This document shows positions 20,024-23,038 of a stretch of DNA of 64,000 nucleotides, in pieces. Position 1 is the first letter of the stretch; every line of letters begins with the position of its first letter. The stretch lies in the NCBI RefSeq assembly GCF_003790525.1, contig NZ_CP033632.1. One strand, written 5' to 3'. The notes beneath the pieces are model-generated. The model was not told the origin of the DNA. It did not search any database and worked only from the letters and a program-made list of their open reading frames with translations. Made by a program: the position numbers and the translations under genes. Source of the DNA: Escherichia coli. Lineage in GTDB: Bacteria; Pseudomonadota; Gammaproteobacteria; Enterobacterales; Enterobacteriaceae.

Positions 20024-21712
20024 CACGTATAGGAAATTGAAAAACCAGTCGATACCATTGTCCACGCCTTATGCCACGTGAGCCTTTCTGCTTTTCCCAC
20101 CACTCCGGTGGTTTCCCTCTCTGTATGGTCGATTTTTATACCGTAACAGGCTGTTTTTTATACTTTCACCGATTCCCGGGCACACTTAGCCTGTGTCAGG
20201 CCGGCATATACCTCAGTAGACTGATATCCCGCGCGTTTTTCTTCAGCCCTGATACATTCAGCCCCGCAATGGCCCGGCGGTATACCATCCGGCAGCCACA
20301 CAGCACGCATTCGAACGGGTCACGACTCAGGAACTGTTTCACCATTTGTGCATAGCACACTTTCGCCACTGGTTCCGGTTTATCCATCCCCAGTGCACGG
20401 TACACCTGCGGCAGCTTCTCTCCACACACACGGTTGGCAAGGAACCCGAAGTACCTCACCATCTTAAAAAACTTCTCCGGGATGTGCTGTTTCAGCCTCG
20501 CGACCAGCTCACGCTGTGTCAGCGTTTCCGTCGCCGTTTCTCCCGTTTTGTGGTCCAGGTAACGGAAGCTCAGGCTTGCCCCTCCGTTGTAATGAGCCAG
20601 TCGGGAAGCCGCTATTGGTGGCTTCTTCAGATAACGACCCAGGTAGCGTGCCGTATTCCGCCCTCCGGCTGTCTTCTTCGACATGTACACATGCCAGTAT
20701 TTTCCGCCGGATTTCAGCACCAGGCTTCTCCACTGTGATTCCGTCGTGATATGTGACAACGACTCCGGCATTGCCATCCCCTCTGACCACGCTTTCAGAA
20801 GCAGCTGCCGCATATTCCACATCCACCGTGAACGCATCGCGTCTTTCAGGAAGCTCAGCTTTTTCCACTGACCATGCTTATTCAGACCTCCACAGGTTAC
20901 AGACACATGTACATGCGGATGCCAGTTGAGACGACGGCCATACGTGTGGATGGCGCAGAAGATACCGGGTTCCAGCCCCCGTTTTCGGGCGGCATACAGC
21001 AGATTCTCCACCGCCAGACGGCACACGTCATTCAGCAGCCAGCGGTTGCTTTCGAACACCGGCCACAGCGTGTCCGGCAGGGTGAAGACCAGATGTACCC
21101 AGTCGCAGTCAGGAAGACGATTCAGCTGTGTTGCTGTCCACAGGTCTGTGGCCTTCTTTCCGCAGGACGGGCAGGCACGGCTGCCGCATGAGTTGGTCAG
21201 GTACTTTACGTGCTGACAGTCCGGGTTATCACACCCGAACTCTTTTACACCCAGTATCCGTGTGCCGCAGGCCAGCATTTTGGTGACGGCTTCAACCTCG
21301 ATATCGCGCAGACCGCCCGCATCCAGGAAGGACGTCCAGCACTGGTTGGCTGTGAACAGACGTTTCAGAGGGCGGGGAGTAAAACCGGACAACATGAGGA
21401 TGGATTAAACCCCGGTATCCTGTAGCAGGGTAAGGGCTGCTGTATCGCCACGGCGCTTCAGGATGGAGGTCGTCACCATCGCAGGTGGTGGGTCCATGGG
21501 TTTGAGCATTTTCATCCAGTCCCATTCTCGTTGTGAGAGCTTCTCAGCACCAACAGAGAGCAGAACTGTATCGATACTTTTGCGGGTCAACATAAGGGGA
21601 TGAGTCCTTAATAAAACAGGTCCTCAGAGCATACATATTCTGCGGGGCGTGCGGCAACAACAGGACGAACCGGGGCGGTTTTCAATTTGCAGCCGCCAGG
21701 CTGCCGTGGTTC
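20024..21712 (-). mobile_element. IS91-family element, IS1294-like, copy 1 (about 1.69 kb, no terminal IRs)
   Basis: Sequence identical to 57798-59486; left flank ends GTTC; boundaries +/- 4 bp. Confidence 0.75.
20196..21395 (-). CDS. IS91-family rolling-circle (HUH) transposase
   Basis: 399-aa ORF with cysteine-rich zinc-binding N-terminus, duplicated in window; recognised as IS1294-type. Confidence 0.75.
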   Translation of the reverse strand: MLSGFTPRPLKRLFTANQCWTSFLDAGGLRDIEVEAVTKMLACGTRILGVKEFGCDNPDCQHVKYLTNSCGSRACPSCGKKATDLWTATQLNRLPDCDWVHLVFTLPDTLWPVFESNRWLLNDVCRLAVENLLYAARKRGLEPGIFCAIHTYGRRLNWHPHVHVSVTCGGLNKHGQWKKLSFLKDAMRSRWMWNMRQLLLKAWSEGMAMPESLSHITTESQWRSLVLKSGGKYWHVYMSKKTAGGRNTARYLGRYLKKPPIAASRLAHYNGGASLSFRYLDHKTGETATETLTQRELVARLKQHIPEKFFKMVRYFGFLANRVCGEKLPQVYRALGMDKPEPVAKVCYAQMVKQFLSRDPFECVLCGCRMVYRRAIAGLNVSGLKKNARDISLLRYMPA

Positions 21713-21718
21713 GAAGGC

Positions 21719-23038
21719 GTGCGCCGGAATATTGCGCCGAGCAGAGGCGAGGGGAAGGAAACTACCAGATATACTTCAGACATCGCTATCAGATCTTGCG
21801 ATGATACAAACATAGTTGCCATGGCACATGGGCAAGGAGGGGCTGAGATAAAAACCGATAATTCGGCACCAACTTTGACATGTAACCATGAAGCACCAAT
21901 TGTATTGCTCGGCGACGGTAGAATGCGCCGTCTTACCCCTGTCGAATGTGAAAGGCTGCAAGGTTTTCCTGATGGACATACATTGATCCCTACGGAAAAG
22001 CGTAAAAAAGTTTCTTCAGATGAACTGGCATACCTTCGCAAAAACTCTCCTGATTTGAACGAAGAAGAGGCCGCAATGCTTGCAGCTGACGGACCGCGTT
22101 ACAAAGCGATCGGCAATAGTATGGCGATACCAGTAATGCGCTGGATTGGCGAGCGGATAACCAAGGCTGCATGTCGGCAGAATGAAGGGCGTGAAACAAA
22201 AGAGCGAAAAGTTAAACCAGCGGCAGAATTCGAACGGTCCATATTCAAATGGGCTGGTGGAAAATTTGGTGTTCTGGAACAAATCTTTCGCTATTTGCCA
22301 GAAGGGAAGCGCCTGATTGAACCTTTCGTCGGTGGTGGAGCTGTCTTCATGAATGCCGGATACCAGGAAAATCTGCTAAATGATGTGAATGCTGACCTGA
22401 TTAACTTTTACAAGACTCTGCAACGCGAGGCGCATTCACTTATCACTCTGGCACATCGTTTCTTCCAGGACTACAACACCCAGGAGGGATTCCTGGCAGT
22501 ACGGAATGCGTTTAACAAACAAGTCTATGATGATTTACATCGCGCAGCGGCGTTTTTGTTCCTGAACCGACATTGTTTTAACGGATTGACGCGTTACAAC
22601 CAGGCCGGTGAGTTCAATGTCGGTTATGGGAAGTATAAAACTCCGTATTTCCCATTACAGGAGATGGAAGCCTTCCTCGGTGCGGAAGGGCGGTCTGAGT
22701 TTGTATGCGGTGATTTTGCAGCGGTGATTGAAGCTGCCGGAGAAGGAGATGTCATCTTTTGCGATCCGCCGTATGAACCGCTTCCAAATACAGAGGGATT
22801 CACGAACTATTCCGGTCATGACTTTAAGTTTGAAGAGCAAAAACGCCTGGTGTCTCTGTTGACGGATGCTCATCGTCGAGGTGCAAAGGTTCTCATTACT
22901 AACAGTGGCGCGCCAAACATCAGAGAGCTTTATCATGACAGTGGCTTCAGAGTGGAACATCTTTTTGCCAGACGTTCTGTGTCTTGTAAGGGGGACACTC
23001 GAGGTGTAGCTCATGACGTTTTGGGTATATTGCTCTAA
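21719..23038 (+). CDS. dmt: 5'-truncated dmt-like methyltransferase: C5-cytosine MTase C-terminal motifs fused to a complete Dam-like N6-adenine MTase domain
   Basis: N-terminal RLTPVECERLQGFPD and AIGNSMAIPV (C5-MTase late motifs) without upstream catalytic motifs; downstream FVGGGAV and DPPY (Dam family); starts at IS1294 boundary. Confidence 0.65.
   Translation: MRRNIAPSRGEGKETTRYTSDIAIRSCDDTNIVAMAHGQGGAEIKTDNSAPTLTCNHEAPIVLLGDGRMRRLTPVECERLQGFPDGHTLIPTEKRKKVSSDELAYLRKNSPDLNEEEAAMLAADGPRYKAIGNSMAIPVMRWIGERITKAACRQNEGRETKERKVKPAAEFERSIFKWAGGKFGVLEQIFRYLPEGKRLIEPFVGGGAVFMNAGYQENLLNDVNADLINFYKTLQREAHSLITLAHRFFQDYNTQEGFLAVRNAFNKQVYDDLHRAAAFLFLNRHCFNGLTRYNQAGEFNVGYGKYKTPYFPLQEMEAFLGAEGRSEFVCGDFAAVIEAAGEGDVIFCDPPYEPLPNTEGFTNYSGHDFKFEEQKRLVSLLTDAHRRGAKVLITNSGAPNIRELYHDSGFRVEHLFARRSVSCKGDTRGVAHDVLGILL

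What the first reader, a model, noticed from the sequence alone, without database searches (positions are those of the whole stretch)
20024..23038. IS1294-like element abuts a 5'-truncated dmt, leaving a Dam-like methyltransferase with a C5-MTase remnant
Seen in sequence: the ORF at 21719 starts 7 bp after the IS91-family element and opens with only the late C5-cytosine MTase motifs (RLTPVECERLQGFPD, AIGNSMAIPV), followed by a complete Dam-like domain (FVGGGAV, DPPY). Established knowledge: C5-MTases need upstream catalytic motifs, which are absent. On the other side of the IS lies an unrelated lipoprotein gene, so the missing part was deleted rather than displaced, consistent with adjacent-deletion behaviour of rolling-circle IS91-family elements. 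Inference: loss of cytosine methylation with retained adenine methylation.
Basis: partly seen in the sequence, partly recalled or inferred. Interest (0 to 1): 0.45.

Follow-up and report, generated by a model that had tools for sequence, protein, structure and literature searches.

The report
IS1294 deletion truncating phage-plasmid dmt
A common mobile element (IS1294) sits where 3.4 kb of a P1-like phage-plasmid has been lost, leaving a promoterless back half of the phage's double methyltransferase gene; it is an ordinary, recent mobile-element deletion, not a new kind of enzyme or system.

Summary
A 1,688-bp IS91-family element of IS1294 type lies at window 20025-21712. The reading frame of P1 dmt resumes directly after it, at codon 232 (21713). 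The remnant keeps only the variable region and motifs IX-X of the C5-cytosine methylase half, plus a complete Dam-type half.

The IS replaces 3,377 bp: the 5' part of ppfA (Rz-like spanin), upfB, upfC, the C1 operator and promoter Odmt/Pdmt, uhr, hrdC and the first 231 codons of dmt.

Both breakpoints lie immediately 3' of GTTC, the IS1294 target, on the same strand. A second, identical IS1294 copy sits in the window's resistance region. Other P1-like plasmids carry similar GTTC-to-GTTC deletions bridged by IS1294.

The C5 half is certainly dead. "Retained adenine methylation" is not supported, because the remnant has no promoter and no native start, and it is redundant in Dam+ hosts. The likely consequences are elsewhere: spanin truncation and loss of genes that are conserved in P1-like elements.

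This exact junction was found in no collection searched. It is a private, recent, ordinary event. Interest is low.

The parts
19247..19639 (-). upfA (P1 backbone, intact)
   Evidence: Colinear with P1/MH422554; annotated UpfA in both.
Its native promoters (P1ppfA, P2ppfA) are deleted.
   Evidence: ORF with lipobox LSGC; phrog_30284 'Rz-like spanin' E 6.5e-79; P1 annotation.
19817..20024 (-). 3' remnant of ppfA (Rz-like inner-membrane spanin), about the last 68 codons. Residues 1-72, including the hydrophobic N-terminal segment, are lost. It is read as part of a hybrid 82-aa ORF (19817-20065) that starts inside the IS.
   Evidence: (phrog_89 positions 63-138 only).
20021..20024 (+). GTTC target tetranucleotide flanking the oriIS end (P1 NC_005856 63724-63727)
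   Evidence: IS1294 target is 5'-GTTC (PMC13181058).
20025..21712 (-). IS1294-type IS91-family element, 1,688 bp. The oriIS end is at 20025 and the terIS end (terminal GTTC, 21709-21712) at 21712. No inverted repeats and no target duplication.
   Evidence: Ends defined against 5 other copies; 3,061 plasmid records carry it; Pfam.
20196..21395 (-). tnpA, Y2 HUH transposase, 399 aa
   Evidence: PF04986 and PF14319; in the same position as the CDS annotated WP_000948429.1 in the other IS copies, which are 99.6-100% identical in DNA.
21405..21593 (-). 62-aa ORF upstream of tnpA inside the IS (function unknown)
   Evidence: annotated WP_000957857.1 in every copy fetched; no Pfam match.
21713..23038 (+). 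dmt remnant: codons 232-672 plus stop of the 672-aa allele, in frame. It has no native start and no promoter. The first in-frame start is GTG 21719.
   Evidence: 0/1326 nt differences from MH422554.
21713..22231 (+). C5-cytosine MTase remnant: variable (target-recognition) region, motif IX (21929-21973) and motif X (22106-22135). Motifs I-VIII are absent.
   Evidence: PF00145 profile 228-298/324 only; alignment to the full-length protein.
22232..23026 (+). Complete Dam-type (D12 class) N6-adenine MTase domain, with FVGGGAV at 22325-22345 and DPPY at 22763-22774
   Evidence: PF02086 1-245/253, E 3e-57; aligns to E. coli Dam residues 4-266 of 278, E 3e-57.
23029..23056 (.). Bivalent C1 operator (Oban a/b) overlapping the dmt stop; intact. 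The Odmt operator that controlled dmt is absent.
   Evidence: P1 annotation.
23712..23865 (+). tRNA-Asn and tRNA-Thr: downstream P1 synteny preserved
57799..59486 (-). Second IS1294 copy, 100% identical and in the same orientation, inside the resistance region. It is the likely source of the copy at 20025.
   Evidence: 0/1688 mismatches.

Best explanation
The window is part of a P1-like (punavirus) phage-plasmid that has acquired an IS26-rich multiresistance region containing IS1294.

Shown:
- One IS1294 copy (20025-21712), identical to the copy in the resistance region, replaces 3,377 bp of backbone (P1 NC_005856 63728-67104).
- Both ends of the lost segment lie exactly 3' of a GTTC on the same strand.
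- The loss removes the first 72 codons of ppfA (Rz-like spanin), upfB, upfC, the C1-controlled operator and promoter Odmt/Pdmt, uhr, hrdC and the first 231 codons of dmt.

Inferred mechanism:
- IS1294 transposed by rolling-circle insertion next to GTTC into this interval.
- The interval was then lost in a second IS1294-dependent step. Most likely a second same-orientation copy inserted at the other GTTC, and homologous recombination between the two direct copies removed the segment and one IS.
- A one-step transposase-mediated route gives the same product and is not excluded.

Inferred consequences:
- The C5-cytosine methylase half of Dmt is irreversibly inactive, because motifs I-VIII, including the catalytic PCQ cysteine, are gone.
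- The Dam half is intact in sequence, but the remnant is a promoterless 3' gene fragment without its start codon. It is best treated as a recent pseudogene.
- Any loss of phage Dam is masked by host Dam.
- The consequences that matter are probably impaired lysis (spanin truncation) and loss of a conserved early operon. The element would then behave as a resistance plasmid that is defective, or handicapped, as a phage.
For: Breakpoints and contents: blastn of intact P1 loci against the window, junction sequences, and P1 and MH422554 annotation.

IS ends, length and target: five other copies. Literature gives target 5'-GTTC and terIS cleavage site 5'-GTTC for IS1294 (PMC13181058).

GTTC signature: GTTC occurs at 0.0049 per base on this strand, yet the terIS flank follows a GTTC in the uninterrupted sequence in every placeable case. 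These are the window, pLR4-95k (674 to 2805), pJD053-144K, pPK8217, p160070-MCR and NZ_CP104527 (674 to inside IS30).

Source copy: identical second copy in direct orientation.

Precedent for insertion at GTTC plus recombination between IS1294 copies causing deletion: PMC6052338. IS91 intramolecular transposition gives second-site simple insertions (Bernales 1999, cited).

Shared oriIS junction (674) with different terIS flanks in two plasmids fits a resident copy recombining with new copies.

C5 motifs lost. Dam domain complete.

No promoter: Pdmt is the only promoter annotated for uhr-hrdC-dmt and lies in the deleted segment. There are 0 promoter-like sites in 21300-23400 and nothing above chance in 19600-21900. 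No C1 operator is left upstream.

Recent event: 0/1326 nt differences from an intact allele. The exact junctions are absent from phages, PLSDB, 5,426 E. coli genomes, GTDB representatives and JGI metagenomes.

dmt is dispensable in Dam+ hosts: PMC12707154. A sequenced P1 strain has an incomplete dmt (AF234173).

mlp, ppfA, upfC and uhr are among the 21 most conserved genes of 77 P1-like elements (PMC9603915).
Against: - No ancestor with IS1294 at only one of the two GTTC sites, or at both, was found. The two-step route is therefore inferred, not observed.
- The final product cannot distinguish recombination from one-step routes.
- The consensus promoter scan is crude. Weak or IS-borne outward transcription, and translation from GTG 21719 or from ATG 22076 (preceded by AGAGG), cannot be excluded, so some Dam activity is possible.
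- Only 64 kb of the replicon is visible, so the lost segment could in principle sit elsewhere.
- The name IS1294 rests on features and on identity to copies that publications call IS1294. It was not compared with an ISfinder reference.
Confidence: 0.8

Rival explanations
1. One-step transposase-mediated deletion. There are two versions.
(a) IS1294 first inserted at the dmt GTTC. A one-ended rolling-circle event then started at oriIS, ran round the whole plasmid and closed at the GTTC in ppfA. The resulting circle lacks the 3.4-kb interval, as shown for IS801 in pPsv48C.
(b) The transposase cut at terIS and at a downstream GTTC on the same strand and rejoined them.
For: IS801, in the same family, makes plasmid deletion derivatives by one-ended transposition that end at target-like tetramers (PMC6354349). 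IS1294 termination fails in 1-10% of events. Both breakpoints are 3' of GTTC on the transferred strand. For version (a), a surviving circle must include repA, which lies just left of the breakpoint. That would explain why end points cluster between repA and dmt.
Against: Version (a) needs read-through of the element's own terIS. It must then also pass the genuine terIS of the second identical copy, 37.8 kb downstream in the same orientation, and several hundred GTTC tetramers (0.0049 per base). In the IS801 pattern the terIS flank stays fixed and the oriIS junction varies. The related plasmids L009 and L027 show the opposite: the same oriIS junction with different terIS flanks. IS91 intramolecular events were reported as second-site simple insertions (title cited). 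No experimental precedent for version (b) was found.
Confidence: 0.3
2. The remnant is an expressed, active stand-alone Dam. Cytosine methylation is lost but adenine methylation is retained.
For: The Dam domain is complete and matches E. coli Dam end to end. The frame is open, with possible starts at GTG 21719 and at ATG 22076 preceded by AGAGG. Gene callers do call such shortened products on other contigs. Stand-alone Dam enzymes of this size are the norm (PDB hits of 259-298 aa).
Against: The native promoter, operator and start codon are deleted. No promoter-like site lies in or near the terIS end on the + strand. The neighbouring genes to the left read the other way. Zero divergence means there is no signal of selection. 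Activity was not testable here.
Confidence: 0.2
3. Assembly artefact. Two IS1294 copies flank an intact 3.4-kb interval, and the assembler collapsed them into one.
For: The IS is a perfect repeat present at least twice in the window. This is the usual cause of collapsed repeats.
Against: The same contig runs through at least six IS26 copies and two IS1294 copies, which points to a long-read or finished assembly. Analogous single-IS deletions occur in independent complete plasmids.
Confidence: 0.05
4. The interval was displaced rather than deleted. It sits elsewhere in the unseen part of the replicon, for example carried there by one-ended transposition.
For: Only 64 kb is visible. IS1294 can carry flanking DNA.
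Against: It is absent from the window. Mobilisation by IS1294 is replicative and would not remove the donor copy. No such arrangement was seen in related plasmids.
Confidence: 0.05
5. The ORF is naturally full length: a stand-alone Dam with a short N-terminal extension.
For: None beyond the open frame.
Against: Intact 672-aa and 754-aa homologues are identical to it from residue 232 onward, and the homology stops exactly at the IS end.
Confidence: 0.01

Closest known systems
IS1294 (IS91 family, rolling-circle/HUH Y2 transposase; Tavakoli et al. 2000, as cited in PMC13181058)
   Same: 1,688 bp, no inverted repeats, no target duplication. The oriIS end abuts GTTC (CTTG or GTGC in other copies) and the terIS end finishes in GTTC. 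It has a Y2_Tnp domain plus a zinc-binding domain. It is 99.6-100% identical to copies in over a thousand enterobacterial plasmids, including F33-type plasmids where publications call it IS1294.
   Different: Nothing structural. The name was not checked against an ISfinder reference. Every copy carries a 62-aa ORF upstream of tnpA, of unknown role.
P1 Dmt (NC_005856 gp069, 754 aa; MH422554 AXF39191.1, 672 aa): fused C5-cytosine and Dam methyltransferase
   Same: Residues 232-672 are identical to the 672-aa allele. Downstream synteny is the same (Oban operator, tRNA-Asn, tRNA-Thr, ban).
   Different: It lacks residues 1-231 (C5 motifs I-VIII), its start codon, its operon partners uhr and hrdC, and its promoter and operator.
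IS1294-associated deletion in plasmid pHNAH33 (PMC6052338)
   Same: The authors propose an extra IS1294 copy inserted at a GTTC site, then homologous recombination between copies deleting the interval (1,566 bp there) plus one IS. The product has the same architecture.
   Different: Different backbone (F33 resistance region versus P1 backbone) and a 3,377-bp interval.
IS801 one-ended-transposition deletions in pPsv48C (PMC6354349)
   Same: Same IS family. Deletion derivatives are bounded by the ori end and a target-like tetramer.
   Different: There the ori junction is the new joint and the replicon lies next to the IS. Here that route would have to traverse the whole plasmid and a second terIS.
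pLR4-95k (NZ_JCBNXV010000004.1) and NZ_CP104527.1 p1: P1-like plasmids with IS1294-bridged deletions
   Same: Same region, same IS orientation, and the same GTTC-to-GTTC signature (674 to 2805 in hrdC; 674 to inside IS30).
   Different: Different breakpoints. dmt stays intact in pLR4-95k.
P1 strain with incomplete dmt (AF234173)
   Same: A P1 genome with a damaged dmt.
   Different: The defect is a smaller loss within the gene region (the record is about 320 bp shorter than AF234172), not an IS-bridged 5' truncation; I did not map it. The promoter is presumably still present there; I did not check this.

Membership tests
IS91 family / IS1294 | Y2 (HUH-type) transposase with N-terminal zinc-binding domain | tested here: met
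   PF04986 E 1.2e-57 and PF14319 E 1.9e-21.
IS91 family / IS1294 | No terminal inverted repeats, no target-site duplication, two different ends (oriIS, terIS) | tested here: met
   The ends ACGTATAGG... and ...GCCGTGGTTC are unrelated. Flanks in 6 copies show no duplication.
IS91 family / IS1294 | Insertion with oriIS 3' of GTTC (or CTTG); terIS cleavage site GTTC | tested here: met
   GTTC at 20021-20024 and terminal GTTC at 21709-21712. Other copies are flanked by GTTC, CTTG or GTGC. Literature values.
IS91 family / IS1294 | Sequence identity to the IS1294 reference (ISfinder / pUB2380) | not testable with these tools
   No ISfinder copy is available. Indirect evidence only: identity to copies in plasmid types where papers name it IS1294.
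P1 Dmt (bifunctional C5 + Dam methyltransferase) | N-terminal C5 MTase with motifs I, IV (PCQ), VI (ENV), VIII (QRR) | tested here: not met
   Absent. Only PF00145 profile 228-298/324 remains. The motifs are present in residues 1-231 of intact homologues.
P1 Dmt (bifunctional C5 + Dam methyltransferase) | C-terminal D12-class Dam domain, orthologous sequence and downstream synteny | tested here: met
   100% identity to MH422554 Dmt residues 232-672. Colinear for 17.5 kb downstream.
P1 Dmt (bifunctional C5 + Dam methyltransferase) | Expression from the C1-controlled Pdmt as part of uhr-hrdC-dmt | tested here: not met
   Pdmt/Odmt, uhr and hrdC lie in the deleted segment. No operator match upstream.
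Dam family (GATC N6-adenine MTase) | Complete D12 fold with AdoMet motif (FxGxG) and catalytic DPPY | tested here: met
   PF02086 1-245/253. Aligns to E. coli Dam residues 4-266 of 278. FVGGGAV and DPPY are present.
Dam family (GATC N6-adenine MTase) | GATC methylation activity in vivo | not testable with these tools
   Needs a dam- host and a methylation assay.
Functional C5-cytosine MTase | Catalytic cysteine (motif IV) and AdoMet-binding motif I | tested here: not met
   Both are deleted.
Rz/Rz1-type spanin pair (ppfA/mlp) | Complete inner-membrane component with N-terminal membrane segment, plus a nested lipoprotein gene | tested here: not met
   mlp is intact. ppfA lacks residues 1-72 including the hydrophobic segment, and the remnant matches only phrog_89 positions 63-138.
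P1-like phage-plasmid (Punavirus) | Colinearity with the P1 backbone, including repA/par and phage genes | tested here: met
   Window 8893-39280 is colinear with MH422554 at 98.7-99.7%, except for this IS/deletion.

The most novel reading that the evidence does not exclude
The interval between repA and dmt of P1-like phage-plasmids may be a recurrent IS1294 landing and deletion zone. GTTC-to-GTTC losses there would strip the spanin and the early uhr-hrdC-dmt operon. That would push resistance-carrying phage-plasmids toward a plasmid-only lifestyle. A stronger version adds that the surviving Dam half is still made, which would be a natural separation-of-function allele showing that the two methylase modules of Dmt work independently.
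Probability: 0.2. Interest if true: 0.35.

Novelty: already known. Interest (0 to 1): 0.13.

Why it matters
The main value is for correct annotation. The ORF should be called a 5'-truncated dmt pseudogene next to IS1294, not a Dam-family methyltransferase. The element should be flagged as a P1-like phage-plasmid with a truncated spanin gene and a missing early operon, so probably impaired as a phage. It also adds one more example of IS1294 remodelling a phage-plasmid backbone after a resistance region arrives. It does not bear on any open question about methyltransferases or transposition.

Tried and rejected
- Exact-junction searches found no record with either junction contiguous. The right junction (100 bp or 48 bp) was searched in E. 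coli complete genomes, PLSDB, GTDB representatives and JGI metagenomes. The left junction was searched in PLSDB. The 3-kb structure was searched in PLSDB and E. coli genomes, and a 5-kb stretch (19000-24000) spanning both junctions in the phage collection. Apparent 77-100% hits were IS1294 at other nearby sites, joined from separate pieces.
- Exact-product look-ups: the 439-aa ORF is not on record. One search used a wrong start (21818 instead of ATG 21821) and is void. The 405-aa and 320-aa versions hit contigs with point-inactivated or contig-broken dmt, not this truncation.
- Folding the IS ends as single-stranded DNA gave no structure better than shuffles, so it was not used.
- Promoter scans found nothing above chance.
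- Lobocka et al. 2004 (the P1 genome paper) is not held, and one literature query was malformed.
- I considered import of 'IS + dmt 3' part' from another P1-like element by one-ended transposition. I rejected it because both flanks are colinear with one backbone for 11 kb and 17.5 kb.
- I considered the ORF being naturally full length. I rejected it.
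Full report
**What is there.** The ORF list and sequence show a 399-aa ORF on the minus strand (20196-21395). It carries the two domains of IS91-family transposases: PF04986 (E 1e-57) and PF14319 (E 2e-21). A 439-aa ORF on the plus strand (21719-23038) has a complete D12-class N6-adenine methyltransferase domain (PF02086, profile 1-245 of 253). It has only the tail of a C5-cytosine methyltransferase (PF00145, profile 228-298 of 324).

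**Exact ends of the IS.** The element occurs in 3,061 plasmid records. I aligned the flanks of five other copies. This fixes the element at 1,688 bp, from ACGTATAGG... (window 20025) to ...GCCGTGGTTC (window 21712). There are no inverted repeats and no target duplication. The first end abuts GTTC in three copies, CTTG in one and GTGC in two. This matches published IS1294: target 5'-GTTC next to oriIS and a terIS cleavage site 5'-GTTC (PMC13181058). tnpA reads toward the oriIS end. So oriIS is on the left (mlp side) and terIS abuts dmt. The name IS1294 is an inference from these features and from identity to copies in plasmid types where papers use that name (PMC6052338). I could not compare it with an ISfinder reference.

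**What was lost.** The window is a P1-like phage-plasmid. Window 8893-39280 is colinear with Punavirus P1 record MH422554 at 98.7-99.7%.
- Against intact loci (P1 NC_005856 63101-73636 = L001; MH422554 = L002), homology runs to window 20025 on the left and resumes at 21709 on the right. Locus positions 629-4000 have no match anywhere in the window.
- After allowing for the chance A at the left junction and the IS's own terminal GTTC, the IS replaces 3,377 bp (NC_005856 63728-67104).
- By the P1 annotation the lost segment holds: the 5' 215 nt of ppfA; upfB; upfC; the C1 operator Odmt and promoter Pdmt; uhr; hrdC; and the first 693 nt (231 codons) of dmt.
- The dmt frame continues from codon 232 at window 21713. 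GTG 21719 is simply the first start-type codon after an in-frame stop inside the IS.
- The 'unrelated lipoprotein' is mlp, a normal P1 gene nested in ppfA. PHROGs files both under Rz-like spanins.
- The ppfA remnant lacks residues 1-72, including its hydrophobic N-terminal segment.

**The methyltransferase.** Intact Dmt is 672 aa (MH422554 type) or 754 aa (P1 reference). Both have the C5 domain first and the Dam domain second.
- The alignment places motif I (GSVCSGIEAA), motif IV (GTPCQAFS), motif VI (WENVPG) and motif VIII (QRRRRVF) within residues 1-231. All of these are deleted.
- The variable region and motifs IX and X remain. The C5 half cannot be catalytic (established knowledge of C5 methyltransferases).
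- C5 activity of Dmt is itself annotated only as 'perhaps' in the P1 record.
- The Dam half aligns to E. coli Dam residues 4-266 of 278 (E 3e-57) and is complete.

**Is the remnant expressed?** The evidence points to no.
- Pdmt, upstream of uhr, is the only promoter annotated for uhr-hrdC-dmt, and it is gone.
- No C1 operator remains upstream. The only operators nearby are the intact Oban pair at 23029-23056.
- Consensus scans found no promoter-like site in 21300-23400. In 19600-21900 they found two weak ones, not above chance.
- Genes to the left read away from the remnant.
- Candidate starts are poor, apart from ATG 22076, which is preceded by AGAGG.
- The remnant differs at 0 of 1,326 nt from MH422554, so it carries no evolutionary signal either way.
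- P1 needs its own Dam only in Dam- hosts (PMC12707154), and a sequenced P1 strain has an incomplete dmt (AF234173).

I therefore treat the remnant as a recent pseudogene. I give about 0.2 to real Dam activity from it.

**How the deletion arose.** In the intact sequence both breakpoints lie immediately 3' of GTTC on the same strand (locus 624-627 and 4001-4004). GTTC occurs at only 0.0049 per base there.
- The same signature holds in every related case I could place:
  - pLR4-95k: 674 to 2805, in hrdC.
  - pJD053-144K: to 2883.
  - pPK8217-139kb: to 2536.
  - NZ_CP104527: 674 to a GTTC inside IS30.
  - Simple insertions in p160070-MCR and NZ_AP027686.
- A second IS1294 copy, identical at all 1,688 positions and in the same orientation, lies at 57799-59486 in the resistance region. 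It is the obvious source.

Two routes give the observed product.
1. A second same-orientation insertion at the other GTTC, followed by homologous recombination between the copies.
   - This is what PMC6052338 proposes for an IS1294-bridged deletion.
   - It agrees with IS91 intramolecular events being second-site simple insertions (Bernales 1999, cited).
2. A one-step transposase event.
   - The documented form is the IS801 one-ended-transposition circle (PMC6354349).
   - Here it would have to run round the whole plasmid, through a second genuine terIS.
   - It also predicts a fixed terIS flank with a variable oriIS junction. pLR4-95k and NZ_CP104527 show the reverse.

I favour route 1 at roughly even odds against all alternatives. 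No intermediate was found.

**Rarity and context.** Neither junction occurs contiguously in any collection searched for it: the right junction in PLSDB, 5,426 complete E. coli genomes, GTDB representatives and JGI metagenomes; the left junction in PLSDB; and a 5-kb stretch spanning both in the phage collection. The event is private and recent. PMC9603915 lists mlp, ppfA, upfC and uhr among the 21 most conserved genes of 77 P1-like elements. The loss therefore probably matters for the phage side of the element, mainly lysis. That is an inference.

**Verdict.** The deletion is larger than stated, and its mechanism is a known IS1294 behaviour. The claim of retained adenine methylation is unsupported. 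Nothing here departs from known kinds.

Noticed in passing
window 57799-59486: A second IS1294 copy, identical at 1688/1688 positions and in the same orientation as the one at 20025-21712. Its oriIS flank is the non-canonical GTGC (...CCTTTGCGTAGTGC), the same flank as in two F-type plasmids (L003, L007). Its terIS end abuts the start of the IS50 transposase gene. Two direct identical copies 36 kb apart could delete the intervening phage genes by recombination.
   Followed up: partly
window 40700-64000: A multiresistance region with at least six IS26-size transposase ORFs: 41148-41870, 46503-47225, 49525-50247, 52368-53090, 55140-55862 and 62029-62751. It also carries aac(3)-II (44549-45430), mph(A) (48501-49403) with an MFS gene (47257-48501), IS50 tnp (59487-60836) with aph(3')-II (60946-61737), an Rrf2 regulator (62757-63329) and the 3' end of oqxB (63405-63974).
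   Followed up: partly
window 1-8900: Non-P1 cargo: a nucleoside-permease-like MFS (99-1331), an MBL-fold hydrolase (1347-2168), and IS3- and IS4-family transposases (6035-6616, 7729-8844). There is also an unusual 724-aa ORF (2502-4673) with a LacI-type HTH at the N terminus and an extracellular solute-binding-protein domain at residues 338-633.
   Followed up: no
window 21740-21925; L001 versus L002 dmt: Dmt exists in two alleles (754 aa in the P1 reference; 672 aa in MH422554 and this window). They differ almost only in the variable region between C5 motifs VIII and IX (alignment columns 241-383). Different target-recognition domains would look like this, which suggests different cytosine specificities.
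   Followed up: partly
L014 (Logan SRR33905329), L017 (ENA ERZ27242363), L015 (ENA ERZ504722): Other P1-like contigs carry full-length dmt DNA with a single inactivating change in the C5 half: W124* in the ENV motif, E114*, and a 1-bp deletion at codon 173 (the last on a 1.7x-coverage contig). The Dam half stays open in all. The sample is biased by the way I searched, so no frequency can be given.
   Followed up: partly
L009, L027, L028, L026, L008, L011 (P1-like plasmids), region between repA and dmt: There are many independent IS1294 insertions and GTTC-to-GTTC deletions in this interval. pLR4-95k (China) and NZ_CP104527 (USA) share the same oriIS junction (P1 locus 674) but have different terIS flanks. 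pPK8217-139kb has several copies, including one IS1294 inserted into another.
   Followed up: partly
window 21405-21593 (- strand): A 62-aa ORF upstream of tnpA is present and annotated (WP_000957857.1) in every IS1294 copy fetched. A 2026 paper states that only IS91 itself has an upstream ORF (orf121). There is no Pfam match and its role is unknown.
   Followed up: no
window 19817-20065 (- strand): A hybrid 82-aa ORF starts at a GTG inside the oriIS end of the IS and runs into the ppfA C-terminal part. tnpA read-through is now the only visible source of transcription for mlp and upfA, whose native promoters were deleted.
   Followed up: no
window 24815-25642 and 25670-25745: An SPFH/Band_7 gene occupies the position of tciA-tciB-tciC of reference P1, as in MH422554. 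The tRNA with anticodon CAT that follows is called tRNA-Met by ARAGORN but tRNA-Ile2 in the P1 record.
   Followed up: no
window 41892-43193 (- strand): A 434-aa ORF in the resistance region. Its only match is a NOV_C (NO VEIN C-terminal) domain at residues 315-412, and it has no NCBIfam name.
   Followed up: no
L019, L020, L022-L025: Six contigs from unrelated assemblies all begin at exactly the same base inside dmt (L002 position 4368, the ATG at window 22076). This may be an assembly-graph break where the two dmt alleles converge. It is unexplained.
   Followed up: no
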